A stretch of DNA of 64,000 nt, taken from NCBI GenBank assembly GCA_965287045.1, contig OZ336890.1, positions 37,820,001-37,884,000 on the forward strand, in the 5' to 3' direction. Below, one piece after another: positions 6,838-58,482 of the stretch. The stretch's first letter is position 1. The number at the start of each line of letters is the position of its first letter. The stretch is from Carcharhinus amblyrhynchos. Taxonomy: Eukaryota. The notes beneath the pieces are model-generated. The model saw nothing but the letters and a program-made list of their open reading frames with translations. It made no database searches and was not told the origin of the DNA. Made by a program: the position numbers and the translations under genes.

Positions 6838-7132
6838 GGGCGGCATAGTGGTTAGCACTGCTGCTGCTTAGCGCCAGGGACCTGGGTTCGATTCCCAGGT
6901 TGGGTGACACGTTTTCCCTGTGACTACGTTGGCTTCCACTGGGTGCTCTGGTTTCCTCCCACAGTCCAAAGATGTGCAGGTTAGGTTGATTGGCTATGCT
7001 AAATTGTGCCTTGGTGTCATGGGGTTAACAGGGTAAATAAGTGGGGTTATGGGAATAGGACTGAGATGGATTGCGATTGGTGCAAACTTGATGGGCCAAA
7101 CGGCCTCTTTTTGCACTGTAGGAATTCTATGA
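6838..7132 (+). mobile_element. HE1-type SINE
   Basis: Head gggcggcatagtggttagcactgc...gggttcgattccc, V-domain, and tail ending ggaattctatg. Confidence 0.85.
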
Positions 7133-7769
7133 ATGTTGCACACTGAGAAATTAACAGCGAAGTGGTCTATTTTCACATAAAACAATAACAATCTCTTTAC
7201 TCAAGCTAAATGTAATATAAAATCCATATGAAGGATACTAGAGACTGCAACATATGGCTCGACAAACATTATCCTGATTAAAAAGGCAGGCACATCTACC
7301 CACGAATGTTTATATAACTCCAGCCAACCATTAAGCATGCAGAGCAGCTGTCTCTCGCACTTAAATTCACACCTACCCCATCAACCTGACTGATGCAGAT
7401 CAAAGAATAAAACTGTCTAAATTCTCCAACTACTTCAAGTTTTAAAAGCATCGTTCAAAAAAGTTGGTTATATTATTTTAAATATCTACGGCACCACAAA
7501 AAAACTCCAGTCTTCATCACAAAATGGGTTCAGTTGTAAAAGGCATTCCAGTCCAGTTTTTTTCCCTTTTTTCCAGATTACCACAATTTAACCTTTCTAA
7601 TTCATTTGGCACATTGTTTAGAATGGAACCAAAAATGAAACAGGTCATCTCATCTTCAACAGTGAAGGAATGGTTGAAGTGGTAAATGAGTCTGTTTCCT
7701 CAGTTTTCACTTAAGGTAAAAGTCACACAATTGGATCTTGTCAACGTATTGTTTCGTCTGAAGCAGTCC

Positions 7770-16634: not shown

Positions 16635-17310
16635 GGGCAGCACAATGGTTAGCACTGCTGCCTCACAGAAACAGGAACTTCGGTTTGATTCCTGGCTTTG
16701 ATGTCTGTCTGTTGCGGAGTCTGCACATTGTCCCTGTGTCTACATGGATTCCTCTGGGCGCACTGGTTTCCTCCCACAGTCCAAAAGATGGGCTGGTTAT
16801 GTGCATCGGCCATGCCAAATTCTCCCTTAGTGTACCCAAACAGGCACCAGAGTGTGGAAACCAGGAGATTTTGCCAGTAACTTCATTGCAGTATTAATGT
16901 AAGCCTACTTGTGACATTCATAGAATCCCTACGGTGCAAGAAGAGGCCATTGGCCCATCGAGCACGCACAACAACAATCCCCCACCCCTCCAGGCCCTTT
17001 TCCTATAACCCCACATATTTACCCCCTAATTCCCCAACGCTATGGGGCAATTTAACACAGCCAATCAACCTAATCCGCACATCTTTGGCGTACAGATCGT
17101 GTTAGACTAGGGTGAGCACAGTGAGAAGTCTCACAACAACAGGTTAAATTCCAACATGTTTGTTTGGAATCACGAGCTTTGTTCCAGGTCACTCACCTGA
17201 TGAAGGAACAGTGCTCCGAAGACTTATGATTCCTATTGGAATTTAACCTCGTGTTGTGAGACTTCTTACTGTGCACACATTTTTGGACATGAATAAATAA
17301 AAACTTTAAA
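16635..17310 (+). mobile_element. Type-2 V-SINE containing a nested minus-strand HE1 3' piece (about 16918-17090) and a Penelope-A relic (about 17090-17275)
   Basis: SINE tail breaks at gcctacttgtgacat and resumes at gacatgaataaataaaaacttt. HE1 sequence cacatctttgg is repeated as cacatttttgg around the Penelope arms. Confidence 0.7.
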
Positions 17311-33384: not shown

Positions 33385-34720
33385 TTAAAATGAGAAAATA
33401 GCGAGGCATCTTGAGGAGAATTGTTTGATAGAGCAGACGCAGCACGGTTTTGTTAAGGGGAAGTCGTGTCTGACGAATTTATTGGAGTTCTATGAGGATG
33501 TGTCTAGGGCGGTGGATAGAGGAGAGCCGGTGGATGTGGTGTTTCTTGATTTTCAGAAGGTGTTTGATAAGGTGCCTCACAAGAGGTTGTTACAGAAGGT
33601 CAGGGGGCATGGAGTTGGGGGTAGGGTGTTAGCGTGGATAGGGGATTGGTTGTCAAATAGGAGGCAGAGAGTGGGGGTCAATGGGTGCTATTCGGATTGG
33701 CGGGTGGTGACTAGTGGAGTGCCCCAGGGGTCGGTGCTGGGGCCTCAGCTATTTACCATTTATATAGATGATCTGGAGGAGGGAACCGAGTGTATGGTGT
33801 CAAAATTTGCTGATGACGCCAAGATTGGTGGAACAGCAAATTGTGCGGAGGGTGTGGAGAGTCTGCAGAAGGATCTAGATAGGCTGGGCGAATGGGCCAG
33901 GAACTGGCAAATGGAATTTAATGTTGGCAAATGTGAGGTTGTCCACTTTGGTAGGAATAATGGTAGGAAGGACTATTACTTACGTGGCGAAAAACTGCAG
34001 CACGCGATGGTGCAGAGGGACCTCGGGGTCCTTGTGCATGAGTCGCAAAAACCCAGCCTACAGGTGCAGCAGGTGGTCAGGAAGGCAAATGGGATGCTGG
34101 CCTTCATCGCGAGGGGGATTGAATATAAAAGTAGGGAGGTCTTGCTGCAGCTGTATAGGGCACTGGTGAGGCCGCAGCTGGAGTACTGTGTGCAGTTTTG
34201 GTCGCCGCACTTACGCAAGGATATTTTGGCCTTGGAGGGAGTGCAGAGGAGGTTTACTAGGCTGATACCGGAGTTGAGGGGGTTGAACTATGAGGAGAGG
34301 CTGAATAAACTAGGCTTGTACTCATTAGAGTTTAGAAGAATGAGGGGAGATCTCATTGAGACATATAAGATGATGAATGGGATGGATAGGATAGAGGTGG
34401 CGAGACTCTTCCCGCTCAAAGCAGCCTCAAGATAAAGGGGGGGGGGGGCGGTTTAGAACGGAGTTGAGGAGGAACTTCTTCACTCAAAGGGTGGTGAATC
34501 TCTGGAATTCTCTGCCCATTGAAGTGGTGGAGGCTGCCTCGCTAAATATTTTTAAGACATGGGTTGATAGGTTTTTGATAGGCAAGGGGATTAAGGGTTA
34601 TGGGGAGAGGGCGGGAATGTGGAACTGAGCCACGACAGATCAGCCATGATCTTATTGAATGGCGGGCAGGCTCGAGGGGCTAGACGGCCTACTCCTGCTC
34701 CTATTTCTTATGTTCTTATG
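33385..34720 (+). mobile_element. Young CR1 LINE, 5'-truncated, RT domain open (ORF 33425-34435)
   Basis: Motifs QHGFVKGKSCLTNL, LDFQKVFDKVPH, GVPQGSVLGP, KFADD. Ends in a (ttcttatg)n tail. Confidence 0.95.
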
Positions 34721-37015: not shown

Positions 37016-39071
37016 ACTACTTCATGCATGTAAATTATTAGTACCTGTTTGTACAGGACTTGCTTGCAAAACAAGTCAGAATCCTATACTGTGCCAATAT
37101 ATGTTAGGATCTGACAAAATATTTTAACTTCTTTATACAGTAAAAACATTTGCTATATATCACAACCCTGGTATACTATCTGAAACTTGGCGCACCACTT
37201 GAATTGGATCAGTCTTGCTTTTTAGGGAAAATACAATGGATACATTGCTATTTAGTTGCATGACTGCCACCTTGCCAATATTGTAATGACTGTTTTAACT
37301 GCTGATAAAATGCTATTAGATAGAATTGTTGCATATCATTGACCATTTCTGCTTATGAAATAACTTGGTGATTTTACTTATTAGTTCGGATAATGTTTTG
37401 AGGTACAATAAAATTAGAATATTTAGTTTTGGTGGAATATTTCCTTGGGCATCAATTTGTTCCTCACATGGTACAGTTAAACAAATGAATAAGTAACGTC
37501 ATCATTCTGATGAGACTTAATATGCATTTTCTGATTACTGCTGAGAGTTTTAGTCTCAGAGATTTAAATCTATTCCAATTTTCTTATCAATAAAAACACA
37601 ATTCTGTAGCTGCTGGAATTCTGAAATAAAAATGGAAAATGCTGGAGGGAGATGAATAAGCATGTAATTTGAAAAGAGATAAAAGTGTAAATCAGGTAAT
37701 CATCAATTTACTAATTCAATCCAGATTCATATCTAATCTGAAAGTATTCATCACAAGCTTAGATCAGTATTATTGAGTGCCACAGTAGCATGATAAACAT
37801 TTCTCACCACCCATGTGCAACAGGAAGAAGTAGAAAAAATCTGTTTCTTTTGGTTATATTACCCTTTGTACACTAAGTGTCTCATGCTTTAGAACAGAAA
37901 ATTGTCCTTTCTGGAACTCATACTTTGTTGTTTTTCATTCAATTAATAATTATAGACCATTGTTGCTTTAAATATAATCTCTATGTCATATAGTTTCCTT
38001 TAGATTTTGGCATCAATCTGGAGCCACATTTTGTAGACGAGCATCATAGGATGGAAGATACTATATTCCACTGCATTTGTGTTTGCAGGCTCAGTCAAAG
38101 TAATTTCACCATTATTTTCATCGTTTATGTTAATATTCTATGAGAACAAATATATTTTAACGTCAGGAACCATTGAAATGCTTCTATATAATGCCTCAGA
38201 TTTTCCAGTCTTCAGATCGTCAGAGACTAGATGTACCTTCCCTCCTCCCCTAGATGAAGGTTAGGACCCTGTTTATACTGACTTTGGGAGTTGCCCGAGC
38301 AATGGACCATTCTTGTGCTCCTCAGAGATTTAGGCAGTTCGGACTTTCTACTGGATATTTACCTGGGAAATGTTAGAAAAATCCTAACCTTCAATCCTGA
38401 ATAAATATACAAATGGCCCTATCAACTTTCGTCTTGACACTCTATTTTTCCCTCTTCTCCAGCCTGACTTCTCTAGCCACACTACCCGATTATTCATCTC
38501 CCCAACCCAACGTAAATAACCCCCCAACCTGATTTCCCCCATCGCCCCCCCCCCATTGCTCCTACCCAACAACCAGACCCTAACCTGTCAAATCCTCTCA
38601 ATGCAACCCAACTACTCTCCCAATCCATTTACCTATATACCCACCTCAGACAGCAGCCGTATACTGAATTACCCACCTTATCCACATGCACATCTTGATA
38701 TTCACCATTCATTCCTATGCTTGTTTACCAACAAGTGGAAAAGTTGTTTCGATGTGTCAAACATTTTCAATAATTTAGTGAACACTTGCAATTTTGGCTG
38801 CAGATTCTGATTTTTAAAAAGAAGACATGGCTTGTCTTCCTGCAATGATCCAGTGCAACAAGGTATCCTATGCATTTCTGAAGAAGCAGGGCTTAGAAAA
38901 CCTGTCCAGAAATGTGGAGCTCCTCTTGTGGTGCAGGAAACTAGGAGCTAAGTGGCAATCTAACAGTGATCGCTGTCCCTCAGAAGACTTCCCTAAGATG
39001 AAGTATTAATTTACAGTGGCTCAGATCTTCCCCTGTCCAGATGGCTAAAGATTGGACACACTTGATTGGAC

Positions 39072-39763
39072 AAACCCAGCTTGCAAGTGCAGCAGGTGGT
39101 CAGGAAGGCGAATGGGATGCTGGCCTTCATAGCGAGGGGGATTGAATATAAAAGTAGGGAGATCTTGCTGCAGCTGTATAGGGCATTGGTGAGGCCGCAG
39201 CTGGAGTACTGTGTGCAGTTTTGGGCGCCGCACTTGCGCAAAGATATTTTGGCCTTGGAGGGAGTGCAGAGGAGGTTTACTAGGCTGATACCGGAGTTGA
39301 GGGGGTTGAGCTATGAGGAGAGGCTGAATAAACTAGGCTTGTACTCGTTAGAGTTTAGAAGAATGAGGGGAGATCTCATTGAGACGTATAAGATGATGAA
39401 TGGGATGGATAGGATAGAGGTGGCGAGACTCTTCCCGCTCAAAAAAGACAGTAGGACTAGGGGGCACAGCCTCAAGATAAAGAGGGGGCGGTTTAGAACG
39501 GAGTTGAGGAGGAACTTCTTCACTCAAAGGGTGGTGAATCTCTGGAATTCTCTGCCCATTGAAGTGGTGGAGGCTGCCTCGCTAAATATTTTTAAGACGC
39601 GGGTTGATGGGTTTTTGATAAGAGAGGGGATTAAGGGTTATGGGGAGAGGGCGGGAAAGTGGAACTGAGCCACGACAGATCAGCCATGATCTTATTGAAT
39701 GGCGGGGCAGGCTCGAAGGGCTAGATGGCCTACTCCTGCTCCTATTTCTTATGTTCTTATGTT
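39072..39763 (+). mobile_element. Young CR1 LINE 3' fragment
   Basis: ORF reads KPSLQVQQVVRKANG...GYGERAGKWN*. Near-identical to 34050-34720, with a (ttcttatg)n tail. Confidence 0.95.
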
Positions 39764-42069
39764 CACTCTGAAGGATTCAATACGGGATCCCTCGTAAATC
39801 CCAACTTGGGACTTCTGATGGGTTATTCCTTTTGTTCCACGGAACCCTCCGAAAAATCTTCTACTCTGCAACTTCTGAGGGTTTGGGGTCAGTTATGTAG
39901 ATAGTTACCCAGAAAATATGAGACTGGGGGGGGGAAGCATTTCCAACTCCTGGGTATCAATATAACAGACACCGCCCGTACTTCCAAGCCACTCAGTTCT
40001 GTCACTCTCAATGAAAAGCTATTAAAATGTCCCAAATCTTTTTCCTGTGTTAGTGAATGAAGACTTGCCAAAATATGGCAGCTGATGCCATAAAAACGGG
40101 TATGGCTTGCTATTTCCAGACGACCTTGCACTGCAAAGGAGGGCTCCAAGAACAGGTACCCTCCATATTTCTGAAGCGGACAATTACCCTCCACATTTCT
40201 GAAGTGGCCTAGTTCAAATGTTCAGGCCAGAAATGTGTTAAAAAAGAAAAGGAGTGGATTGGCAATCCAATAGTGATTGCTATTTGAAGGATTTAGCTCA
40301 GTATGTTTCCAGTGACATTTTCTGGACAAGCAGAACTGGCAAGCGGTTCTGAGCTCATGTTGCTGTTGAACCGACTAAGTAAACAAAGTCCCATCAGATG
40401 ATGAATTGTGTTGAATAGTGTTTACATGGCAACATAGACAATTAAACTAATTGTGATATAAAAATGTGTACAGCATCCTGGAATGAAACAGCAAATTGCA
40501 ATATTATCAATCTCTGCAAAAATGTCCATCTGATCCACACTTCCCATTTTACTGAGTTAACGATCTTCACCCTGTCTCTTTGCTGGCATGGAACATCCAT
40601 ATCTAGTTGAAGAAAGGAAGAATAATTTTGAGGAGACATTTTAAAAATGTTCGAGTGTACCTCCTAGAAGATTACCCTGAATATTATTGACTGAGGCCCA
40701 AAGGGGGTCTCGGCTCCAACACTTAGTATGCAATTTAAGAATGAAAGAAATTAAATTAAATGTCAATCGAAAAGAAGCAGTTAAAAAAGTTGATTAGATC
40801 ACAGCAGAATTGGACTGAATATGCTGCCTTTTTATAAGATGATACACTCATGCCAAACATTTTGGAAGTTGGATTACGCAATGCTTAATTTTTGATACTT
40901 TTTGAATTGGCTCAAACTACAGTTCCACGTCTCTCTACGAAGTAAATTAATGTTCACAGGCTTATAGTTATTGTAACCACAGTAGTTTTTTTGTCTAGTT
41001 TAAGAAAGCAGCCAGCTTGCAAAACTCTGGCATTCAGTTCAACATTAAGCATTATGTTCGAACTCACTCCAAGACTGATTATTTCTACCTTCAGAACATT
41101 TATCATGTCAGATCTTCCATTATAATCCTTAACCATTTTTGTCATCATTAAACTTGAATATTCCAGTGCCTCGTCCTTCCATCTTCCATAAACTTCAACA
41201 TTTAAATTAGAACCAAATGAGGGACTCCATTCGTAAATGTAAAAAGAAATGTTTAGCTAATCTGGATAGAGTTTTCCTTAACCACAATCTGTGCTCAAAA
41301 ACTGGGGTCTTTGTTCCAAAACTTTGATAAAATCGGAGAAATATGTACATAGATGAAAGTTTTGCCCATGGTGCATGTGTTTGCACAAGCTTAGATTGGA
41401 GATATCCTAATCCTTGTTTTCCCTGCTCTTTCCGTTAAACCTCAAATGGAGTGATCGACTTGGTTTGCGTAACTATTGTGGTCATGTTCCTATTAATTAT
41501 TGAACTGCAATCAGGGCATATACTTTTGCAGGCAGAATTGTAAATTCCTTTTGGAGTGGGAGGTGATTTATTTCTTAGCACACACATATTTCTGTTTATT
41601 CTTTTAACTTTGTGATGGTGTTTATTGCCATTCCAAATTGCACCCAAAAAACAGTAATGGACCTTCTTTACACCACTTGGCATGTATCTTCTAAATTCTG
41701 TTTGTAGTGTGGAACTGATGCACTTAAATGTGCAGACTTGTTTGCATTGCTGCACGCACATACTTTAACACTTGTGCTTAGTTTGCATGGGATTGTGCAG
41801 ATTTGAGGAAATATTGTTTGCTGAATAACTAGCTTATGGTGTTTATTATGTTATATCATTATGTTTTTACAAAGCACATCCATATGTTATAGGCTAATTA
41901 GTGGCCACAGAATGATATAGTAAAAAACCATGTTCATTGGCAGGAAGCAGAGCCAATAAGTGATCTATATTTGTATTGTTGGATATTAAAAATGAGTTAT
42001 AGAGTTAAATGAGTTTAATTTGGTGTTTTTGTGTCGGAGAGGGTATATTCATGTTATTCAGGGTGCAAG

Positions 42070-42694
42070 TGAATTGGGGAAAATCATAAAGATGGCTGCC
42101 TGGCACATAAAAAGGCTATCTGGGAGAGAGACATTAAGCAGGCACTGACTCTTAGCGCAGACGTACTTGAAATTAAAATGTGCAGGACAAACAGTTATTT
42201 AAAGTTAAACATGCAGGAATCAGATACTGCAAGAAGCCAATGAAGAGCTAAAGGCACTTTAAAGGTAAGGAGAGACCTAGGACAATAAGGACTGATAAAG
42301 AGATTACCCATAAATGGGAACAGGAATACATAAATGCAGGAAATCCAATTACTGTATGTATAGACAGAAACTAAGTCATTGATAGTCACTGAAGGAGGAA
42401 ATGTAGTCATTCTATGAAACAACGTGATGTTAAAAGCTAATGTCTGTATATGTCTGGCTGTAACGATGTGTTAAACTAATGATCCTACTCAACTATAACA
42501 ATGTGTCAAGTGGCTAATGTCTGGACTATCCATTGTCTGAAAAGTATAAAAATGAACCACTCCTATTATATTATTGAGAAGGTAGCTGCCAAGTACTGTC
42601 GAGTACCAGTGCTTTGTCTCCGAAGCTTTGTGTCCAAAGCAAAAGCTGTACTTTTGAACCTCCAGTGTGACTTTGGTGGTAATTTCCCATAACA
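42070..42694 (+). repeat. ERV 5' LTR (625 bp)
   Basis: tgaattggggaaaatcataaag...aatttcccataaca. TATAAAA at 42545. Direct repeat of 49260-49895. Confidence 0.92.
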
Positions 42695-42696
42695 AT

Positions 42697-42715
42697 TGGC
42701 GTAGTCAGCTAGGAT
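42697..42715 (+). promoter_or_regulatory. Primer-binding site, tRNA-Ser
   Basis: TGGCGTAGTCAGCTAGGAT compared with TGGCGTAGTCGGCAGGAT, the complement of the vertebrate tRNA-Ser 3' end. Lies 2 nt after the LTR. Confidence 0.85.
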
Positions 42716-43368
42716 CCTATTACTGGTAAGTTTCGATCGATTGGTCATAATCGGAAAGCCGGGGTAGAGATCACTGACTCTGTGGGAGTCGGACAAGGTC
42801 AAGAATACGGTTTGAAAGGTGCTTAACAAAAGGTATTTGTAGTAGCAAGTATTGTTGTATATGGTATAGTGATAAGTACTAACTGCTGATAGTGATAAGT
42901 TACTGTTACTTGTGCTGACCGACAAGAGGACAAGGTAGTGCCTGTCTCAAACACCCAGCCTTAGACTGGTTGTTAAGAGGGGAAATCCCCCACACGAAGG
43001 TCAGGAATTGAAGTGGGCAAAGAGACACCAAGGGAACTTAGGACTGTGAAGCACAAGTGACAGAGGTCAATTAACATCGAACTCTGTAGTGGTGAGCAAA
43101 TGCGGAATTGCGATCTGATTGCATGAAAATTTGTAAAGTTGGGTACTGGACTGTCAATGTTGTAAAATGGTGCAGAAAAGGAGCTTGATCAACTCTGACC
43201 TAGAGCCAGTCTCCGGTGGAAAAATACATTGCCGAGGTGGTAATAGTGGAAGTTGTGAGTATAAATTGAAACCCTGAGACAGTAATGAAACAAGGTGCAA
43301 GAGTAGTAATAGTGGCCGGGGGTAGTGAATTCCCAATGGTAGAGAGCACACTTTACTAGGGAGTAATC

Positions 43369-44400
43369 ATGGCCATACATTGCCTAAAACACGTTGCCAA
43401 AGAGGCAGTAATAGTGACCACGGATAGTGAAGTCTGCGAATTGGCAGATAATGAAGTTAAGAGAGGATCTGCAGATTCTGTCACTGAAGTGTACATGACA
43501 GGCAGGCAAGTATTAATAAAGAGGATGCAAAGGGATGGCTGGGATACTTCTTAGACTTTAAAGCAGCAGAGAAAGTGCATAGGTAAAGAAAAAAGAAACA
43601 AGACAAAGAAGATAGGAGTTCTGTTAATACATCAGTTCGCTGGTCTAATTGAGCAAGTAGTCGCTTATACTAAGAAGTGGAGTGAAGATGAAGAAAAGAT
43701 TAGAGAATTAGAATCCCAAGTCAGGGAACTGGAGAAACAAAACCAGGTATTAGAAGAGAAGCAATAGAGAGGAAACTGTCCCTCTGCCTCCTTAAGTCCA
43801 CACAACAGGGACCAACTGCTCCTCCAGAGAAGTGGGAAGCGCTAGAACACAGCTTAGCACCAGTAACCCAAGGGGGAACAGATGCGCAGCCAAAGGCAAC
43901 TTGTAAACCCGTCACCCAAAGTGAGAGACAGCAGATAATGGCTTCCCTGGGTAAATCACAACCTAGAAGTGCAAACGCTAAATTCTGGGAAGGATTAGAC
44001 ACAATCTGGGTAAGACACCAATTACACCTGCGAGATGTGCACCAGCTGGTCGGGGCAGCCTGTCCAATGGATAACTGGAGGCAGGTAGCTGGTGGACCCG
44101 CTGCTCCTCCAGCACAGGATTATAATGGGGGATGTTGGCAGAGATGCAGAGGGTATTAGGGAATGCTCCTACTAACTGGAGCAGAATTACCACAACAAAA
44201 CAGTTTAAAGGGGAAGGAGCTTCTGAATAAGGGTAACAATTGTTTCAGGTATATCAGGAGTGCTCAGGACAAGGGAACCCAGGCCGAGAAGATAGAACAT
44301 TCATCCAGCCTTTTAAGGATGGACTCTCTAGTGCTCACCAAACCATCCTAAAAATGGAAGTGATTATGTCCCAAGATTATGATGAATTGGTAGAATGAGC
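43369..44400 (+). pseudogene. gag: Degraded gag-like frame
   Basis: Located after the leader. Basic N-terminal region, coiled coil (EEKIRELESQVRELEKQNQ), PTAPP late-domain-like motif, and capsid-like QIMASLGK...FWEGLDTIWVRHQLHLRDVHQLV. Has stops and frameshifts. Confidence 0.6.
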
Positions 44401-44490
44401 TAGTGGCATATCTGGAGGTGAAGAGGAGACATCTTAGTTATTGTATTTCAGTGTGTTTGTGTGGTCTGGTTGTTGTTGCATTAGATTGAA

Positions 44491-45213
44491 AACATAAGAA
44501 CATAAGAAATAGGAGCAGGAGTAGGCCATCTAGCCCTTCGAGCCTGCCCCGCCATTCAATAAGATCATGGAACTGTCGTGGCTCAGTTCCACATTCCCGC
44601 CCTCTCCCCATAACCCTTAATCCCCTCTCTTATCAAAAACCCATCAACCCGCGTCTTAAAAATATTTAGCGAGGTAGCCTCCACCATTTCAACGGGCAGA
44701 GAATTCCAGAGATTCACCACCCTTTGAGTGAAGAAGTTCTTCCTCAACTCCGTTCTAAACCGCCCCCCCCCTTTATCTTGAGGCTGTGCCCCCTAGTCCT
44801 ACTATCCTTTCTGAGCGGGAAGAGTCTCACCACCTCTATCCTATCCATCCCATTCATCATCTTATACGTCTCAATGAGATCTCCCCTCATTCTTCTAAAC
44901 TCTAACGAGTACAAGCCTAGTTTATTCAGCCTCTCCTCATAGCTTAACCCCCTCAACTCCGGCATCAGCCTAGTAAACCTCCTCTGCAGTCCCTCCGAGG
45001 CCAAAATATCCTTGCATAAGTACGGCGCCCAAAACTGCACACAGTACTCCAGCTGCGGCCTCACCAATGCCCTATACAGCCGCAGCAAGACCTCCCTACT
45101 TTTATATTCAATCCCCCCTCGCTATGAAGGCCAGCATCCCATTTGCCTTCCTGACCACCTGCTGCACCTGCAAGCTGGGTTTTTGCGACTCATGCACAAG
45201 GACCCCGAGGTCC
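44491..45213 (-). mobile_element. Young CR1 3' fragment nested in the ERV
   Basis: Reverse complement of the 39072-39763 family, with a (cataagaa)n tail at 44491. Confidence 0.92.
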
Positions 45214-45899
45214 TGTTGAAGCAGGACCTGTTGAAGCCTGTTTGTTCTTGTGGAGTGTTTGTTGCAGGCAGTGGATCCAGTGCTTTGCACCTTAGTTTAA
45301 TCTCGGGGAGCTGGGGAAGTGTGAAAACTGTTAAAGATTAAAGTGATAAGATTTCTTGATTTTACTTCTGTTTTTGAGTTTAGTTACAGTTTGGAAGAAC
45401 AACAAAGGCGACTGTCTTAATCAACTTTCTATATTCTCTTTAAATGTTTTACTTTCATCCCAGTTTAAAATTGTTAAGTTTGTATGAAGGAGGGAGTGCT
45501 GTTGAATGAATGTTGGAAGCTTCCATGTTTGTCTGTGTGTGTTTAACAAAGTGGTTGTGTGGATGTTTTGTTGTTTGCTTGAATGTTTTAATAATCTTCC
45601 CCTAATTGTGATTTTACAACAGTGGGTTTGATAAATAAAAATTGAAATGTAAAGGATTTAAACCTTGAAGGGAACCATGTGTCCTTTCCTTTGTCTTGAA
45701 GTAGAAATTATGAGAGTCAGTTGAGAAGTTAGGAGAAGAAAATAAGTAATTTTGTGGAAAAGAAGAAAAGCAGGCACAAAGGAATGAGGTAAATATACTG
45801 TCTGTGAGTCGGTTTAAAGCATGTCAAGTCAGTGAAATGCAGTATTAAGGTCTGCAGAGTATAGTGATTTACGAATGTATGATAGTTTAGTATTCTGTA

Positions 45900-46062
45900 A
45901 CAGTGGGAAGTTGTGTCCTAGTAAAAGCATTACCTGACAAACCAGGGTTTGCATCAAAATGAAGTGGGCCATATGAAGTTATAATTAGTGGAGACACCTA
46001 TATAGACATAAAGGGAAAGATATATGGAAACATTGGACCCAGCTGAAATTATACCAAGAAAT
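45900..46062 (+). pseudogene. Integrase C-terminal (GPY/F) remnant of pol
   Basis: VGSCVLVKALPDKPGFASK*SGPYEVII...WKHWTQLKLY fits the W-x-GPY-x-V...W-x-H-x-x-x-L-K pattern. Confidence 0.6.
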
Positions 46063-46199
46063 GAATGAATGAATGAATGACTGAATTAACTGGACTGCTT
46101 TTCTCAAGATGTGGGTATGCCGGCGTTGGACTGGCGTAAACACAGTAAAAAGTCTGACAACACCAGGTTTTAGTCCAACCGATTTATTTGATAATAGAC

Positions 46200-46235
46200 T
46201 CACAAGCTTTCGAGGTTTCCCTCTTCATCAGGTGA
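46200..46235 (-). ncRNA. Minimal type I hammerhead ribozyme
   Basis: UCAC-CUGAUGA-A-GAGG(GAAA)CCUC-GAAAGCUU-GUGA: intact core, stem I, stem II and palindromic stem III. Confidence 0.8.
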
Positions 46236-46449
46236 ATGGAGAGTTCTGGCCTCAGACAGAGCATATAAAGCACAGACAGTTTAGAGATTACTGATTAGAA
46301 TGCGAATCCTTACACCTAACCTGCTGTTCAAGACCTGAAGTGGCTGACAATGTGAGTGGAAGGAGCACTGATCACAGGTTACAGAGATGTGTATTGTCTC
46401 CAGACAGTACAGTAAGTGAGGTTTTGCAAACCCAGGCAAGTCACGGGGG

Positions 46450-47369
46450 TTACAGATAGTGCGACATGAACCCAAGATCCCTGTTGAGACCGTCCTCATG
46501 TGTGCGGAACTTGGCTATCAGTCTCTGTTCAGCGACTCTGCGCTGTCGTGTGTCGTGAAGGCCACCTTGGAGAATGCTTACCCGAAGGTCAGAGGCTGAA
46601 TGCCCGTGACCACTGAAGTGTTCGCAACAGGAAGGGAACAGTCTTGCCTGGTGATTGTCGAGCGATGTTCATTCATCCGTTGTCGTAGCGTCTGCATGGT
46701 CTCCCCAATGTACCATGCTTCGGGACATCCTTTCTTGCAACGTATCAGGTAGACAATGTTGGCCGAGTTGCAAGAGTATTTACCGTGTACCTGGTGGATG
46801 GTATTCTCACGTGTGATGATGGTATCCATGTCGATGATCCGGCATGTCTCGCAGAGGTTGCTGTGGCAGGGTTGTGTGGAATTGTGGTCACTGTTCTCCT
46901 GAAGACTGGGTAGTTTGCTGTGAACAATGGTCCGTTTGAGGTTGTGTGGTTGTCTGAAGGCAAGAAGTGGGGGTGTGGGGATAGCCCTGGTGAAATGTTC
47001 GTCTTCATCAATGGTATGTTGAAGACTCCGGAGAAGATGTCGCAGCTTCTCCGCTCCGGGGAAGTACTGGACGACGAAGGGTACTCTGTCCACTGTGTCC
47101 CGTGTTTGCCTTCTGAGGAGATCGGTGCGGTTTTTCGCTGTGGCGCATCGGAACTGTTGATCTATGAGTCGAGCACCATATCCTGTTCTTATGAGGGCAT
47201 CTTTCAGGGTCTGGAGGTGTCTGTCACAATCCTCCTCATCTGAGCAAATCCTGTGTATACGGAGGGCTTGTCCATAGGGAATGGCTTCTTTAACATGTTT
47301 AGGGTGGAAACTGGAGAAGTGGAGCATTGTGAGATTGTCTGTGGGCTTGCGGTACAGTGAGGTGCTGGG
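46450..47369 (-). pseudogene. Penelope RT thumb and GIY-YIG endonuclease, partial
   Basis: LYRKPTD...HFSSFHP...IPYGQALRIHRICS, then NIVYLIRCKKGCPEAWYIGET...RMNEH. A 1-nt frameshift near 46625 precedes HFSGHGH...GLNRDLGFMSHYL*. Confidence 0.9.
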
Positions 47370-47578
47370 GTGACTTGCCTGGGTTTGCAAAACCTCACTT
47401 ACTGTACTGTCTGGAGACAATACACATCTCTGTAACCTGTGATCAGTGCTCCTTCCACTCACATTGTCAGCCACTTCAGGTCTTGAACAGCAGGTTAGGT
47501 GTAAGGATTCGCATTCTAATCAGTAATCTCTAAACTGTCTGTGCTTTATATGCTCTGTCTGAGGCCAGAACTCTCCAT

Positions 47579-47614
47579 TCACCTGACGAAGAGGGAAACC
47601 TCGAAAGCTTGTGA
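47579..47614 (+). ncRNA. Minimal type I hammerhead ribozyme
   Basis: UCAC-CUGACGA-A-GAGG(GAAA)CCUC-GAAAGCUU-GUGA. Predicted cleavage after 47610. Confidence 0.8.
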
Positions 47615-47788
47615 GTCTATTATCAAATAAATCAGTTGGACTAAAACCTGGTGTTGTCAGACTTTTTCCTGCTTTTCTCAACACAGGCAAAGGCTGCAAG
47701 CAAGAGTAATTGGGCGTTTGGGTTAATAGTATAACTTTTGGACATTATATAAATTATAGTATTAGATTGATGCTTGATTGTTGCGAAT

Positions 47789-49201
47789 ATGTATGTAATC
47801 GCATATGTAACTGTATTACTTTGTGTTGTCGTGACTGTAAATTTGACTGGATTGGAGGATAATCTATTTTACAAAGCTCATACACACACGGGAATCGAAC
47901 TGTATGTTACCCGTTAACACAATCGTTAGAAGCCCTACTTGTAGCCATCCCTGGGTGGACCTCTCATGACTTGTATACAGTAGATACACCCTGTAAGGGA
48001 CAAATTGGCAAATATAAAAGAGGGATACAGGGGAGATGTGTGGGACTCGTAAACCCCACAGATCCTGTGTGCAGGGGGTTCCAACAGGTGGGAGGAAAAG
48101 CTTGTTCAGACACTGCAAGCTATCCGCTTTGTTTTACGGGACAGGGATGGGGATGTGCCTATGCTTTGATCCCTAAGAATGATTCCTGCATGTGGGCGCG
48201 GTGTGTCCGTTAACATTGTCGGGTTTAAAAGGGATAGCTTACTTGCATTTATGATTAACAGAAATGTCTAAATATAACTGTGGGAAGAGAGCTCATTTGT
48301 GGACAATGCAATGGGACTCATTTAAGCTCAGCCAAATTGACATACCCATTTGATACTTAACAGGTGGTGGCTCGTAATCAAGACACTAAATGTTACCAGG
48401 CTAAGAAGGGGATATGTGTTCCTCTTCAATGGTACTTGCACAACAGAAACACCAAGTCTCCCAAACCGTTTTGCAGTCGGAACAATAGGACCACAGACTG
48501 TTCCATGCCCTCAGGAGGTGAATATTCGGAGAAGAATAGTAACCCGGGCTTTTAGCAAAGAATTCTGCGCCAACTGGGAAGCCCCGGGCACAATGGGATC
48601 ATCGTTGGAACACAGCTCCCTTGGAGCCTTATCTCGGGGTGGGAGGTGCGGGGGTGAGTGCAAGGTGATTAGTTCAAAGAATAGGAATCATGTTGTTTGT
48701 GGACTGACAGTCCTGGGAAACAGCACTTCAGAAACACTGGAAGCTGTTAACCAAGCAATGGCTGAACTGAGATTATATGCACAGCAGACAAGATATACAG
48801 TGGGCTACCAGTTAGCACAACAAGGGGGAGTGTGTACAATCAAAGGCAACAAATGCATAACCCATGTCACAAACGTGTCGAATAACATTACAAAAGTCAT
48901 CAATAGTATCAGAGAACAACTTGATAACTTCAGACAGGAACCCAGGAAAGGAAATAACTGGTTGGAATGGCTAGTGGAGGGGTCCTGGGAATCTTACTTA
49001 TTACATGGATTAGTCATATTTATTTCAATTGTAATTGTCTGTTGTCTAATTGTTGGATGCCTAATAGTCTGCTGCAAGGTTATGGTAATGAGAATTGTGC
49101 CAGGAGCCAGTGTATCCATCGAGGAAGAGCCCATGATGCAGATCCCTGAAGATATCAGAAGAAACGAAGAAGGAAAGAAGAAAATTGATTTCTATATGTG
49201 A
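47789..49201 (+). pseudogene. env: ERV envelope (SU frameshifted; 3' SU and TM open over 48350-49201)
   Basis: Signal peptide MYVIAYVTVLLCVVVTV, Cys-rich SU, RRRIVTR|A cleavage-like site at 48547, heptad repeat, ISD-like QQTRYTVGYQLAQQGGVC, CX6C, Trp-rich MPER, TM helix and cytoplasmic tail. Confidence 0.88.
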
Positions 49202-49247
49202 ACGTGTAATTGTTGGTCTAGGGATTATTAAAGTCATAATCCAGACC

Positions 49248-49259
49248 AAAAGTGGGGAC
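49248..49259 (+). promoter_or_regulatory. Polypurine tract
   Basis: aaaagtggggac lies immediately before the 3' LTR. Confidence 0.75.
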
Positions 49260-49895
49260 TGAAGTGGGGAAAATCATAAAGCTGGGTACCTGACACAAAA
49301 TGGCTGCCTAGCACATAAAAAGGTTACTGGGGAGAGAGACATTAAGCAGGCACTGACTTTTAGTGCAGACAGCTACTTGAAACTAAAACATCCAGGACAG
49401 CCAGTTATTTAAAGTTAAATGTGCAGGAATCAGATACTGCAGGAAGCCAATGAAGAGCTTGAGGCACTTTAAAGGTAAGGACAAACCTAGGACAGTAGGA
49501 ATGATTAGCCATAAATGGGAACAAGAATACATCAATGCAGGAAAACCAATTACTGTATATATAAACCGAAACTCAGTCATTGATAGTCACTGAAGGAGGA
49601 AATGTAGTCATTCCATGGAACAATGCAATGTTAAAAGCCAATGTCTGTATATGTCTGGCTTAAATAATGTGTTAAACGATCGATCCTACTCAACTATAAC
49701 GATGTGTTAAATGGCTAATGTCCTGACTATCCATTGTCTGAAAAGTGTAAAAATGAACCACTCCTATTGTATTATTGAGAAGATAGCTGCCGAGTATAGC
49801 AGAGTGCCAGTGCTCTTTCCCCAAAGCTTCGTGTCTGAAATAAAAGCTGTACTTTTGAACCTCCAGTGTAACTCCAGTGGTAATTTCCCACAACA
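49260..49895 (+). repeat. ERV 3' LTR (636 bp)
   Basis: tgaagtggggaaaatcataaag...aatttcccacaaca. AATAAA at 49839. Confidence 0.92.
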
Positions 49896-50904
49896 GCATG
49901 TATGGGTTTTTATGGTTTCAGTTCAAACTGTTTCTTTTGAGCTGAGAGAGTTTACAATGGGAAAGGTAATCATGAGCTTGGAGAAAGAATGAGCTGTTGC
50001 CTAGCAACACAGATCACTTTAAGAAAAAATACTTTTAAGTTTTTAGTTTTAGCTAAATTCATGGCAGTTGGAACTAGGAGCCTAGAGAGAACAGCTCTCC
50101 CAGCTCTGTTACCATCAGAAAAATCATACAATGGAGTAATGGGCATGAAATCAAGCTCCAGAAGAACTAAAGGACGGTTCATTCTGGAAATTGGAGAATG
50201 AAGAGAGGTTTCCCCAGAAGTGTGAAGCTAATTGGAACCAGGTGCAATTCGCTGAAGTTAAAGGCAGACCTTGAAAGGGCAGACTTGATTTAAATTAGCT
50301 GGAGAAAAGCCAGGGATCAGAAGTGATCACAAAATTTCCAGCCTTTGGAAACAATGGTATTCTGTTGGAGACTAAGTATCTGAGTTTGAATGAAAGTTTG
50401 GATCCATTTTGCAATTCAAGGTAAAGGAATGCCGTAATGAGAGTTGGAAAACCTGCAGGTGGATCCTTGCTAGAACAGCTGAGAGAGAACCTCATTGGAG
50501 AGAAGATTTGAAAGCGTCTTTTTGAAATAGACTTGTGACAATCATTGGGGAGGGAGGGGAATTTAAGGAGAAACCCACAAAATAATGATTGAATGGCATC
50601 TGCCATTGGGTTTCAGAGCAAGATGTTATCTGACCACAGTTAGCCTTTGGGTTACAGGAAGAGCTGTGCATATTGAGAAAATTATAGTATAGCATAACAT
50701 GTGTTCGCCTTAAATCTGTATACTTATGTGAAAATAAATAGAAGTATTGCATTATAGTCAAACTATGTTTAATGTTTTTATTTTGTTGTTGAAAGCTAAT
50801 TGGCAGTCCAGTGTTCTAAGGAAAGGTAAAGTTGTAGTCTTTTGAGCCAAGATTCCATTCTGGAACATTCCCGTCCAGAAGCAACGCCAGCTGGGATCGT
50901 AACG

Positions 50905-52253: not shown

Positions 52254-55200
52254 TAAACTAAATAGTTGGGGGGAGGGTTCAGGGGTATGGGGAATTACAA
52301 AATCCAAGGAAAAGAAGAGGGTACGAGTGCAGGTTAATGTTGAGGACATTGAACTAGTTAAAGGAGTCGAGGGCTCAGGAGAGGTTAGTAGTGTTTCAAA
52401 CAAATTGGCTCCAGATAAAGACTAGTATAAAGACACTTTACCTGAATGCACAGAGCATTCGAAACAAAGTGAATGAGTTGATGGCACAAATCAGTACAAA
52501 TGGGTATGATCTAGTGGCCATTACAGAAACATGGTTGCAGGGTGACCGGGACTGGGAACTGAATATCCAGGGGTATCAGACATTTCAGAAGGATAGACAG
52601 AAACGAAAAGGAGGCGGGGTAGCTCTGTTAATAAAAGATAACAACATCAGGGTGGTAGTGAGAGACGATGAAGGGTCTAAGAAGCAAAATGTGGAATTGT
52701 TTTGGGTTTTAGCTAATGAAGAGAGATTGAATAGTCTGGATCTGTACTCGTTAGAGTTTAGAAGGCTGAGGGGGGATCTTATAGAGACTTACAAGATAAT
52801 AAAGGGGCTAGATAGGGTAGAGGCAGAGAGATTCTTCCCGCTTAAAAGGATAGCAGAGCTAGAGGGCACAGCCTCAAGATAAGGGAGGGCAGTTTAGAAT
52901 GGAGTTGAGGAGGAACTTCTTCACTCAGAGGATGGTGAATCTCTGGAATTCTCTGCCCATTGAAGTGGTGAAGGCTACCTCGTTGAATATATTTAAGTCA
53001 CGGGTAGATAGATTTCTGATAGACAAGGGAATTAAGGGCTATGGGGAGAAAGCGGGATAGTGGAACTGATTCACTTCAGATCAGCCATGATCTCATTGAA
53101 TGGCGGGGCAGGCTCAAAGGACCAGATGGCCTACTCCTGCTCCTATTTCTTATGTTCTTATGTAGAGATAAGGAATAGTAAGGGGAGAAAGTCACTGGTG
53201 GGCGTGGTCTATAGACCCCCAAATAATAACTTTGAGTTGGGGCGGGCTATAAACGTGCAAATAATGGATGTGTGCAAAAACGGAACAGCAATAATCATGG
53301 GAGATTTTAACCTGTATATTGATTGGTTGACTCAAGTTGGACGCGGTGGACTTGAGGAAGAGTTCTTAGAATGCTGTCAGGATAGTTTCCTCAAACAGTA
53401 CGTTACAGAATCTATGAGGGAGCGAGTTATCTTGGATCTGGTCCTGTGTAATAAGACAGGTAGAATTAAAAATCTTCTTGTGAGGGATCCTCTTGGGATG
53501 AACGATCATAGTATGGTTGAATTTCTAATACAGATGGAGGGTGAGAAAGTAGGGTCCCAAACCAGTGTCCTCTGCTTGAACAGAGGGGAGTACGATAGGA
53601 TGAGGGAGGAATTGGTTAATGTAGACTGGGAGTGCAGACTAGTTGGTAGGACAGCTGAGGAACAGTGGAGGAATTTTAAGGAGATTTTTCTCAGTACTTG
53701 GCAAAAGTATATTCCAGTGATAAAGAAGAAATGTAAGACAAAGGATAACCAGCTGTGGATAATGAAGGAGAGAATTAAATTAAAAACCAATGCGTACAGA
53801 GTGGCCAAAACTAGTGGGGAATTAGAAGATTGGGAAAACTTTAAAAAACAACGAAGAACGACTAAGAAAGTGATAAAGAAAGGAAAGATGGATTATGAAA
53901 CTAAACTGGCGCAAAATATAAAAACTGATTGTAAAAACTTTTACTAATATATAAAAAGGAAAAGAGTGGCTAAAGTAAATGTTGGACCCTTAGAATATGA
54001 GAAGGGGGATTTTTTTGTCGATCTTCACGTTAGAGGACACAAATAGCTTATCGAACATTAACGGTTGTGGGATTGTAGGGGGTGAGGTCCTTTAAAACAA
54101 TTACTATTACTGAAGAGGTAGTGCTTGGTAGACTAATGGGACTAAAGGTAGTCAAGTCCCTGGGCCCGGATGGAATGCATCCTAAGGTACTGAAAGAAAT
54201 GACAGAAGTAATAGCAGATGCGTTAGTAGTAATTTATCAAAATTTGCTGGACTCTGGGGAAATGCTGGCTGATTGGAAAATAGCTAATGTTACGCCGCTG
54301 TTTAAAAAAGGAAGTAGACGAAGGTTGGGTTACTACAGGCCGGTTAGCTTAATGCCCATAGTTGGGGTAATGCTGGAATCCATCATTAAAGAAGAAATAG
54401 CAGGACACCTGGAAAAGATTGGTTCGATCAAGCAGACACAGCATGGATTCGTGAAGGGAAAGATGTGTTTGACAAAGTTACTGGATTTTTATGAAGATGT
54501 AACGAATGCAGTTGACAGAGGGGAACCGGTGGATGTGGTGTTTATAGATTTCCAGAAGGTGTTCGATAAGGTGCCTCTTAAAAGGTTGCTGCAGAAGATT
54601 AAGGTACATGGAGTTGGGGGTAAAGTGTTAGCATGGATTGAGGATTGGCTATCTAACAGGAAGCAGAGAGTTGGAATAAATGGGTGCTTTTCTAGTTGGC
54701 AGTTGGTGACTAGTGGTGTGCCACTGGGATCGGAGCTGGGGCCTCAACTGTTTACCATATACATAGACAGTCTGGAGGAGGGGACCAAGTGTAGGTTAAC
54801 GAAGTTTGCTGATGACACAAAGATGAGTGGGAAAGCAAATTGTATGGAGGACGTGGAAAGTCTGCAGAGAAATTTTGGATAGGCTGAGTGAGTGGGCGAG
54901 GACCTGGCAAATGGAGTGTAATGTTGGCAAGTGTGAGGTTATCCACTTTGGAAGGAATAATAGCAAAATAGACTATTATTTAAATGGTGAAAAATTACTA
55001 CATGCTAATATGCAGAGGGACCAGGGAGTCCTTGTGCATGAATCACAAAAACTCAGTCTGCAGGTGCAGCAGGTGATCAAGAAGGCAAATGGAATGTTGA
55101 CCTTTATCGCGAGGGGAATGGAATATAAAAGCAGGGAGGTGTTGCTGCAATTGTACAAGATACTGGTGCGGCCGCAACTAGAGTACTGTGTGTGATTTTG

Positions 55201-55735
55201 GTCCCCTTATTTGCAAAAGGATATATTGGCCTTGAAGGGAGTACAGAGAAGGTTCACCAGGTTGAAACCAGAGATGAGGGGGTTAGCTTACGAGCAGAGA
55301 TTGAGTAGATTGGGCCTGTACTCATTGGAGTTTAGAAGGCTGAGGAGTGATCTTATAGAGACATATAAGATAATGAAGGGGCCAGATAGGGTAGAGGTAG
55401 AGAGATTCTTTCCACTTAGAAAGGAAACAAGAACTAGAGGATACAGCCTCAAAATAAGGGGGAGTCAGTTTAGAACAGAGTTGAGGAGGAACTTCTCTCA
55501 GAGGGTAGTGAATCTCTGGAATTCTCTGCCCATTGAAGCGGTGGAGGCTACCTCATTTTATATGTTTAAGTCACAAGTAGATGGATTTCTGATCAGTAAG
55601 GGAATTGAGGGTTATGGGGAGCAAGCCGGTAAGTGGAACTGAACCACTGTCAGATCAGCCATGATCTTATTGAATGGCGGGCAGACTCGAGGGGCTAGAT
55701 GGCCTACTCCTGCTCCTATTTCTTATGTTCTTACA
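52254..55735 (+). mobile_element. CR1 LINE with near-complete but disrupted ORF2 (APE and RT)
   Basis: YLNAQSIRNK, AITETWL, VYRPP, MGDFN, DH, QHGF, KFADD and a (ttcttatg) tail. TSD tcatt at 52249-52253 and 55736-55740. Confidence 0.92.
52707..53162 (+). mobile_element. CR1 3' fragment nested in the APE domain of the larger CR1
   Basis: APE breaks at ELFWV and resumes at EIRNSKG. The insert encodes EERLNSLDLYSLEFRRL and has its own ttcttatg tail. Confidence 0.85.
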
Positions 55736-57300: not shown

Positions 57301-58224
57301 AGTTATTGTGATCTCACTGAAACTTCAAAGAAAAATAAACAATTATATAGATTAACTGAAACATACTTGTTATTATAGTCGATTTTTATTTTAATCTAAA
57401 TTGTAGTAAGCTTTCCTACTTTTTTGCAAATGTAGCTGTGGTCATTTTGATTCTTGTGATGTAGTGAAAAGCAGGAAATTCTTGTTGCATGTACTTCCTG
57501 TAATGGACACTGATACTCATAAATGAGTGTTTTGTTTTTAAATGATTTGCAGAACATTTGAAGTGCTACTTAATGTTGTATGGCCAGAACGTGTCATGAA
57601 TTTCAGTACTCGGATATTAGCTACACCCATAAAGAGCATTTTAAAGCAAGTTTTGACCTCAGTAAAAGCTTGCAATAGACAATTGAACATTAGTGCAAGT
57701 CTGTCCCCAACCCACTTTAACAGTGGTCTTTCCAATAAGGAATATTCTTGTTTCTTCAAATATAATCTTTAAAATAAAAAGGCTTCCATTAGAAAGGAAG
57801 GCAGGAGGGGCCCTTTGGCCTCCTGCCCGTGATGAGAAACCAAGTGGAAGTGGGGAAGCGGGCAACAATGGAACGTTTATGCGGGGGAATATTATGCTGC
57901 TTAACTGCCTTGTGAACAGTCTCCAAATGCAAACATTTACAATGTATTAAGAAAGAATTGTCTTGGAGATTTGTAATTTAACCTCCAGCTTCTTTCATCC
58001 ATCCATCATTTGTCTCGTTATTAACCTATATGCAAGTTTCCTATTGTACTGTACCCACGTACAGACAAGCACCTTCATTTGTCTTATTGTTGATTGGCAA
58101 GGTGTGCTTGGCATTGTTCTGGAATGCTACCTCTTCATGTTTGATGAAAAGGAAACCCTTGGTAAATGGGTTTTTATTATTTAATATTATGAATGATTGC
58201 TGTATATATGACTGCCGCTTGTTA

Positions 58225-58482
58225 ACATGGTGGCTAGCACTGCTGCCTCACAGTGCCAGGGACCCAGTTTCGATTCCGGCCTTGGATGGATGACTGCAGA
58301 TTGTCTGCATGGGTTTCTTCCGGTGCTCTGGTTTCCTACTTCAGCTCAAAAATGTTCAGGTTAGATGGTTTGACCTTGCTAAATTGCCTGGATTGGGCCT
58401 TGTAATACATTTTTGGAGAGTTGTGCAGACTTGATGGGCCAAATGGCCTCCTTCTGCACTGTAGGAATTCTATGGTTCTATG
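58225..58482 (+). mobile_element. HE1-type SINE with internal deletions
   Basis: Head gcactgctgcctcacagtgccagggaccc and tail gatgggccaaatggcctccttctgcactgtaggaattctatggttctatg. Confidence 0.8.

What the first reader, a model, noticed from the sequence alone, without database searches (positions are those of the whole stretch)
42070..49895. Non-autonomous gag-plus-env provirus with tRNA-Ser priming and 5-bp TSD
Removing the nested CR1 (about 0.72 kb) and Penelope (about 1.57 kb) leaves about 5.5 kb. This holds LTRs, PBS, a short gag, about 0.8 kb with no recognisable coding signal, roughly 50 codons of integrase C-terminus, and env. I see no protease, RT or RNase H motifs. Most non-autonomous ERVs lose env, whereas this one kept it. 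A tRNA-Ser PBS and 5-bp TSD recall class III elements (HERV-S/ERV-L side), so this may be a class III backbone with a captured alpha/filovirus-type env. Inference: it could be a satellite that supplies structural proteins and borrows Pol from a helper.
Basis: partly seen in the sequence, partly recalled or inferred. Interest (0 to 1): 0.7.

Follow-up and report, generated by a model that had tools for sequence, protein, structure and literature searches.

The report
Shark retrovirus family lacking its enzymes
This is an old, decayed copy of a shark endogenous retrovirus that kept its capsid and envelope genes but lost its RNA-packaging domain and all its enzymes, and copies with the same loss are common in several related genomes, so the cut-down form probably spread by borrowing enzymes from an intact relative.

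Summary
The anatomy is real. It has TG…CA LTRs 89% alike, a tRNA-Ser PBS, a TSD with 4 of 5 letters matching, nested CR1 and Penelope insertions, and 5,523 bp net. No pol was found, and only 725 bp separate the gag stop from an integrase-tail motif.

New here: gag stops just before the nucleocapsid, where its closest relatives carry two zinc knuckles. The loss is not private to this locus. In 4 of 4 public contig sets (four studies), the post-gag spacer is as deeply covered as gag (ratio 0.73–1.42), and contigs join gag end to spacer without the CR1. So this is a multi-copy pol-less subfamily, probably mobilised in trans.

Not supported: an ERV-L/HERV-S backbone, a separately captured env (Gag and Env both match intact relatives at about 70%), and a self-sufficient structural supply. 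The Env has a cysteine-flanked internal fusion loop, best PDB hits are filovirus GP2, and it has CX6C, not CX6CC.

Untested: whether other copies keep env, whether gag and env were under selection, and which element was the helper. Verdict: new variant of a known kind.

The parts
42065..42069 (+). left copy of 5-bp target site duplication (4 of 5 letters match the right copy)
42070..42694 (+). 5' LTR, TG...CA, TATA-like box at 42545-42552
42697..42715 (+). primer binding site for tRNA-Ser(AGA/TGA)
   Evidence: 17 of 18 letters plus one extra against the XtERV-S PBS
42725..42730 (+). candidate splice donor just after the PBS (consensus match only)
42716..43440 (+). long 5' leader, multi-copy in all four laid runs
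43441..44437 (+). decayed gag: matrix, coiled coil and capsid, ending before the nucleocapsid; two frame breaks (one a deletion of about 22 codons that five listed contigs from other copies do not share) and four internal stops
   Evidence: tblastn to P0145/P0001 65-78%; stops; table 8
44438..44490 (+). spacer, first part (T/G-rich, non-coding), shared by many copies
44491..45219 (-). nested 5'-truncated CR1-type LINE (name recalled), absent from other copies
   Evidence: joints across it in 4 of 4 runs
45220..45890 (+). spacer, second part; longest stop-free stretch 78 codons in six frames; multi-copy
45891..46072 (+). probable integrase C-terminal remnant with one frame break (motif recalled, searches blank)
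   Evidence: translation; blank
46108..47681 (-). nested Penelope-type element with GIY-YIG ORF (46581-47519), inverted 307-nt arms and a 13-bp TSD; sits in the pyrimidine tract of the candidate env splice acceptor
47682..47687 (+). candidate env splice acceptor, about 100 nt upstream of the env start
   Evidence: consensus match only
47789..49201 (+). decayed near-full-length env: signal peptide, SU, basic cleavage site, Cys-flanked internal fusion loop, ISD-like stretch, CX6C, membrane anchor; two frame breaks and five internal stops, all in the SU half
49248..49259 (+). polypurine tract
49260..49895 (+). 3' LTR, TG...CA, AATAAA at 49839-49844
49896..49900 (+). right copy of the target site duplication

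Best explanation
An old insertion of a multi-copy, non-autonomous subfamily of a shark retrovirus. A founder lost everything from the nucleocapsid through most of integrase and carried a 725-bp non-coding spacer in its place. It kept every cis signal: LTRs, tRNA-Ser PBS, leader, PPT and splice sites. Its RNA was packaged, reverse-transcribed and integrated by Gag and Gag-Pol from an intact relative. Env was inherited from that parent lineage and rode along because the deletion stopped upstream of its splice acceptor. The CR1 and Penelope insertions and the point damage came after integration. Shown: anatomy, loss of NC and pol, shared layout across copies, equal identity of Gag and Env to intact relatives. 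Inferred: trans-mobilisation, the helper, and that gag and env were passengers.
For: Spacer/gag summed depth 1.06, 0.94, 1.42, 0.73 and gag-end bin/gag 1.21, 1.53, 1.61, 1.26 in X1, X5, X6, X9. Spacer depth is 59-178 times the median depth of the 8 listed single contigs per run. Joints 44489 to 45219/45220/45229 in 4 of 4 runs, on 2, 4, 3 and 5 contigs. Internal control: 5 of 32 listed pieces stop at 44132-44138 and run on unlike the window, marking a private gag deletion, while the 1 listed piece that reaches the gag stop runs through it (table 8). 31 of 32 listed pieces differ from the window by roughly 10-18%, in line with LTR divergence of 11%, as expected for dispersed copies that decayed separately. 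Intact relatives exist: Gag P0001/P0145 with two CCHC and Env P0139, each recorded on a JGI contig of 7,623 bp.
Against: The tool warns that summed contig depth is no copy number. Joint sides are only 20-24 letters, one joint contig (97% identical, X5) may be the orthologous locus, and 702 joints were not shown. Depth falls to 0.24-0.45 of gag in the spacer-to-integrase bin, and a variant that skips 45469-45781 exists in 2 of 4 runs, so the family is not uniform. The laid stretch ended at 46130, so env retention in other copies was not seen. No pol-bearing partner was read (blank). Gag and env are still near full length while the spacer shows no trace of pol, which fits selection on gag/env as well as passive carriage.
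Confidence: 0.5

Rival explanations
1. True satellite: the pol-less subfamily made functional Env (from the spliced RNA) and an NC-less Gag, under selection. It supplied Env for cell-to-cell reinfection, and its capsid co-assembled with or interfered with the helper's.
For: Env and matrix-capsid are near full length and about 70% identical to intact relatives, while 725 bp between them show no coding trace. Splice donor and acceptor motifs are kept. The gag-end layout is shared by many copies. Precedent: pol-less Athila families keep gag and env under purifying selection (PMC2410132, passages).
Against: No selection test was possible. This copy's gag and env are both broken. High-copy anamniote ERV lineages commonly keep env anyway (66-91%; bioRxiv 10.1101/2021.11.23.469661). 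The intact relative seems to have its own Env, so it needed none.
Confidence: 0.27
2. The pol-less family is real, but most copies also lost env; this locus is an env-retaining minority or intermediate.
For: Depth drops toward the 3' end of the laid stretch: 0.24-0.45 of gag at 45786-45903 and lower or similar in the last bin. Env loss is the usual route for amplifying ERVs (cited as prior work).
Against: The integrase-tail bin, just upstream of env, is at 0.73-2.82 of gag. The last bin lies at the edge of the stretch and in a short repeat where reads were cut.
Confidence: 0.1
3. Private lesion: an ordinary provirus deleted at this locus only, with the spacer an unrelated repeat, or with copies multiplied by segmental duplication.
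For: No whole genome was available. Short joint sides. Intact relatives with NC exist.
Against: No fall in depth after the gag stop in 4 of 4 runs; 16-31 contigs per run cover 44440; joints link both halves of the spacer; copies differ by 10-18%.
Confidence: 0.08

Closest known systems
XtERV-S of Xenopus (PMC8278194; passages and supplement passages seen)
   Same: tRNA-Ser(AGA/TGA) PBS, 5-bp TSD, non-myristoylated Gag, gamma-like TM with an HR1 glycan site, and a set of internally deleted copies.
   Different: [quoted passage not shown]
Pol-less Athila families of Arabidopsis (PMC2410132; passages)
   Same: LTRs plus gag and env, no pol, whole families mobilised in trans.
   Different: Plant Ty3/gypsy elements with intact ORFs shown to be under purifying selection; here a vertebrate retrovirus, Gag cut before NC, selection untested.
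Zebrafish Bhikhari (Bik-2) and chicken ENS-1 (PMC12067270; passages)
   Same: Non-autonomous vertebrate ERV families that keep gag and lack pol.
   Different: Bik-2 has neither pol nor env; this element keeps env and an integrase-tail remnant.
Snakehead-retrovirus-like ERVs / clade Huo, including elephant shark CmiERV lineage I (PMC4422223 part 1 of 2; PMC2717909 and PMC6001957 passages)
   Same: Shark host range; Gag without myristoylation signal, with a coiled coil and zinc finger.
   Different: SnRV has one zinc finger, the relatives here have two. No RT of this family was read, so placement is untested.
Anamniote gamma-type Env survey (bioRxiv 10.1101/2021.11.23.469661; parts 1-3 of 6 and passages)
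   Same: ERVs with gamma-type Env in 6 cartilaginous fishes, a CXnC subtype lacking the third cysteine, frequent env retention.
   Different: The text read reports no pol-less, NC-less family and says its new Envs show no similarity to the alpharetroviral fusion peptide region. Its supplements were closed and may list this lineage.
Avian gamma-type Env / filovirus GP2 (PMC3758190, PMC9967133; passages)
   Same: Internal fusion peptide flanked by cysteines, HR1 N-glycan site, ISD-like stretch.
   Different: The third cysteine of CX6CC is missing in 7 of 7 sequences; host is a shark, whereas the 2013 review had seen this loop in no retrovirus outside birds.
Chicken EAV-HP (pol deletion recalled, not confirmed)
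   Same: Multi-copy ERV recalled as lacking pol while keeping env sequence.
   Different: Alpharetrovirus-related; recalled as a gag-env fusion rather than separate genes with a spacer.

Membership tests
Non-autonomous ERV family | Paired TG...CA LTRs, PBS, PPT and TSD | tested here: met
   TSD 4 of 5 letters
Non-autonomous ERV family | No pol coding capacity | tested here: met
   725 bp net between gag stop and integrase-tail motif; Pfam and tblastn blank
Non-autonomous ERV family | Deleted layout shared by many copies | tested here: met
   depth ratios and joints in 4 of 4 runs; contig proxy, not a count in an assembly
Non-autonomous ERV family | Other copies also keep env | not tested
   the single read-laying run covered 42600-46130 only
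Non-autonomous ERV family | A pol-bearing partner with the same LTR ends and PBS | not testable with these tools
   no genome held; locus scans blank; intact Gag and Env relatives seen only as proteins
ERV-L / HERV-S / XtERV-S type class III | tRNA-Ser PBS and 5-bp TSD | tested here: met
   neither feature is exclusive to the group
ERV-L / HERV-S / XtERV-S type class III | Gag lineage without Cys-His zinc knuckles | tested here: not met
   P0145 and P0002 have two CCHC; 15 of 23 relatives that reach the capsid end carry at least one (36 examined); XtERV-S and ERV-L have none
ERV-L / HERV-S / XtERV-S type class III | RT clusters with spumaviruses / ERV-L | tested here: inconclusive
   no RT in the element; proxy RT of P0009 (29-33% Gag identity) scores 214-217 bits on its best four PDB chains against 144-148 on foamy-type chains; no ERV-L or SnRV reference was available
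SnRV-like / clade Huo | Non-myristoylated Gag with coiled coil and zinc finger | tested here: met
   relatives lack Gly2; long helix 98-152 in the model; CCHC; features
SnRV-like / clade Huo | RT phylogeny with snakehead retrovirus | not testable with these tools
   no Pol of this family retrieved
Gamma-type Env | ISD-like stretch before the TM cysteine loop | tested here: met
   Pfam PF22307 and PF00429 hits on relatives, mostly below cut-off; alignment; PDB hits to GP2 and syncytins
Gamma-type Env | CX6CC motif | tested here: not met
   CX6C followed by Ile in 7 of 7 sequences; matches the CXnC subtype
Avian gamma-type / filovirus-like TM | Internal fusion peptide flanked by two cysteines and HR1 N-glycan site | tested here: met
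   first Cys 7 of 7, second Cys 6 of 7, glycan site 6 of 7; definition

The most novel reading that the evidence does not exclude
A long-lived vertebrate satellite retrovirus. The pol-less, NC-less lineage kept env and a capsid-only Gag under purifying selection across several shark species, supplying a filovirus-like fusion protein for reinfection and an interfering or co-assembling capsid to a helper. Its Env would also be a non-avian retroviral example of the cysteine-flanked internal fusion loop, without the SU-TM linking cysteine, which bears on where filovirus GP2 came from.
Probability: 0.2. Interest if true: 0.72.

Novelty: new variant of a known kind. Interest (0 to 1): 0.42.

Why it matters
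ERV surveys in fishes mostly start from Pol, so an abundant pol-less shark family can be missed. If env and the NC-less gag prove to be under selection, it would be a vertebrate counterpart of the cooperative gag+env Athila families and a natural case of a capsid-only Gag. If they were neutral, it is an ordinary parasitic deletion derivative. The Env family is of separate interest as a shark retroviral fusion protein whose closest solved structures are filovirus GP2.

Tried and rejected
No whole genome was held, so no genome-wide BLASTN.

An RNase H-like look of 43280-43450 was considered and dropped: Pfam and PDB gave no such hit, the motif is not kept in P0001/P0145, and relatives start Gag downstream.

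The integrase-tail motif found nothing among longer proteins (8 candidates, none at E<=1), in Pfam or in the PDB.

Locus scans were blank: metagenome contigs with P0001 and the env alignment; viral contigs with P0001, P0009, a PBS pattern and the env alignment.

No RNA holder was listed; this is no evidence on expression.

Earlier scan notes held nothing related (one search gave one unrelated note). Atlas searches only confirmed Gag and RT in general terms. No tRNA gene in the window.

LTR dating gives 28, 62 or 280 million years for rates of 2.2e-9, 1e-9 or 2.2e-10 per site per year (the first and last rates, the middle one arbitrary), too wide to use.

The journal version of the anamniote Env survey was not held.
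Full report
Observation. The element spans 42070-49895. Its LTRs are 625 and 636 nt, both TG...CA, with 546 of 615 aligned letters identical (K2P 0.123), and the flanks match at 4 of 5 letters. The PBS at 42697 matches the tRNA-Ser(AGA/TGA) PBS of XtERV-S at 17 of 18 letters with one extra letter (PMC8278194, passages and supplement passages). A PPT precedes the 3' LTR. Two later inserts interrupt it. One is a CR1-type fragment at 44491-45219, 95.8% identical to another copy in the window (the name is recalled). The other is a Penelope-type element at 46108-47681 with a GIY-YIG hit, inverted arms and a 13-bp TSD, sitting in the pyrimidine tract of the candidate env splice acceptor. Without them the element is 5,523 bp.

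Host. No genome was held. Named relatives point to a cartilaginous fish: 3 of 6 Env hits are labelled whale shark or Pristiophorus japonicus, and a Gag-Pol relative is from Heterodontus francisci. The host is therefore inferred.

Gag. A search with the first gag frame found one close relative, P0001; its cluster mate P0145 is 485 aa. The window matches P0145 residues 45-394 in three frames at 65-78% and stops at 44437. P0145 continues with two CCHC knuckles at 419 and 444. Of 36 further relatives examined, 23 reach the capsid end and 15 of these carry a knuckle; many of the rest are fragments or decayed. A model of P0145 (pLDDT 77) matches orthoretroviral capsids: MLV and HTLV-1 in the PDB, WEHV-2 first among viral models.

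Missing pol. Only 725 bp lie between the gag stop and the integrase-tail motif once the CR1 is removed. Pfam found nothing retroviral in six frames of 45205-46111, and none of 146 retrieved proteins matched 44380-46110. The integrase tail itself rests on a recalled motif; three searches with it were blank.

Is the deletion private or shared? I laid contigs of 4 of the 24 listed runs (four studies; three labelled as different organisms, one unlabelled) on 42600-46130 at 80% likeness. Summed depth over the spacer relative to gag was 1.06, 0.94, 1.42 and 0.73. The bin holding the gag stop was 1.21-1.61 times gag, with no fall. Spacer depth was 59-178 times the median depth of the eight listed single contigs per run. 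Contigs join 44489 to 45219, 45220 or 45229, skipping the CR1, in 4 of 4 runs (2, 4, 3 and 5 contigs). A useful control is the small deletion inside gag: 5 of 32 listed pieces stop at 44132-44138 and continue unlike the window, as a private lesion should look, while the one listed piece that reaches the gag stop passes it. Thirty-one of the 32 pieces differ from the window by roughly 10-18%, close to the LTR divergence.

Limits of that test. The tool states that summed contig depth is not a copy number. Joint sides are 20-24 letters, one joint contig is 97% identical and may be the orthologous locus, and most rows were not shown because the CR1 swamped the tables. Depth drops to 0.24-0.45 of gag in the spacer-to-integrase bin, and a variant skipping 313 nt of spacer occurs in 2 of 4 runs. 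Env was outside the laid stretch. The shared pol-less layout is well supported; shared env retention is inferred from this locus alone.

Env. It runs from 47789 to 49201 and matches the intact 497-aa P0139 at 70-72% (88% over the first 33 residues), with two frame breaks and five internal stops. Gag and Env match intact relatives at the same level, and P0001 and P0139 are each recorded on a JGI contig of 7,623 bp. They are probably one element, though I could not read the contig, and its length leaves room for pol (inference). Env was thus most likely inherited with the backbone. Among seven aligned sequences, the internal fusion peptide is flanked by cysteines (7 of 7 and 6 of 7), an HR1 glycan site is present in 6 of 7, and the TM loop is CX6C-Ile in 7 of 7. 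The best PDB matches are envelope glycoprotein chains, mostly labelled GP2 or Ebola/Sudan/Ravn glycoprotein (E 1e-15 to 1e-9), ahead of syncytins (1e-5 and weaker). This fits the avian gamma-type definition except for the third cysteine (PMC3758190, passages). A CXnC subtype is already described in anamniotes (bioRxiv 10.1101/2021.11.23.469661, parts 1-3 of 6).

Mechanism. Most likely (0.5): a founder lost NC through most of integrase but kept all cis signals, and its RNA was copied by an intact relative's Gag and Gag-Pol, with env carried along because the deletion ended upstream of its splice acceptor. An NC-less Gag cannot select genomic RNA alone (established knowledge), so the element depended on the helper for packaging as well as for enzymes. 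The main rival (0.27) is a true satellite with selected Env and capsid-only Gag; the near-full-length genes beside an unrecognisable spacer fit it, but no selection test could be run. Lesser rivals are a mostly env-less family (0.1) and a private lesion (0.08).

Classification. The PBS and TSD match XtERV-S, but the zinc-knuckle Gag does not fit the ERV-L/XtERV-S type. The Gag features resemble those described for snakehead retrovirus (PMC2717909, passages), a group known from elephant shark (PMC4422223, part 1 of 2) and counted with class III in the broad clade Huo (PMC6001957, passages). The only RT proxy, P0009 at 29-33% Gag identity, scores 214-217 bits on its four best PDB chains against 144-148 on foamy-type chains (chain identities partly recalled). 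The class stays open between epsilon-like and SnRV-like.

Novelty. Pol-less gag+env families are known in Athila (PMC2410132, passages), gag-only non-autonomous ERVs in zebrafish and chicken (PMC12067270, passages), and Ser-primed class III ERVs with gamma-like env in frogs. High-copy anamniote ERVs often keep env. I saw no description of a pol-less, NC-less, env-keeping shark family in the listings of nine searches or in passages of PMC8672886, PMC5210030, PMC10820513, PMC4607243 and PMC9967133. The library lacks most subscription journals and repeat databases, and the closed supplements of the anamniote Env survey may list this lineage. Verdict: a real, multi-copy, non-autonomous shark ERV subfamily; new variant of a known kind; interest 0.42.

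Noticed in passing
window 46095-47687: The Penelope insert landed in the pyrimidine tract of the candidate env splice acceptor, and its 13-bp TSD duplicates that tract, so an acceptor-like sequence survives on its right side.
   Followed up: partly
window 46138-46444 and 47370-47676: The Penelope element has 307-nt inverted arms, 98-99% complementary, around a 313-codon GIY-YIG-bearing ORF; it looks much younger than the ERV.
   Followed up: partly
window 48341-49198 and P0139-P0144: Shark retroviral Env family with a cysteine-flanked internal fusion loop but CX6C-Ile instead of CX6CC in 7 of 7 sequences; closest solved structures are filovirus GP2.
   Followed up: partly
P0003 (Logan, 233 aa): A more distant Gag relative (about 62% over the capsid) also ends 14 residues after the capsid with no zinc knuckle; it may be a second NC-less lineage or a broken copy.
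   Followed up: no
window 45468-45782: A spacer variant that replaces 313 nt by 16 letters occurs in 2 of 4 laid runs (depth 88 in X1), suggesting further subfamilies.
   Followed up: no
window 33389-34720, 39066-39763, 52699-55733: Several CR1-type copies, two of them 92-96% identical to the one nested in the ERV, indicate recent CR1 activity nearby.
   Followed up: no
window 660-1255, 6843-7139, 16638-16941, 58223-58482: Multiple copies of a tRNA-headed SINE-like repeat (identification recalled).
   Followed up: no
window 42092 vs 49282-49299: The 3' LTR has an 18-nt segment near its start that the 5' LTR lacks; part of the LTR divergence may come from recombination between subfamilies rather than age.
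   Followed up: no
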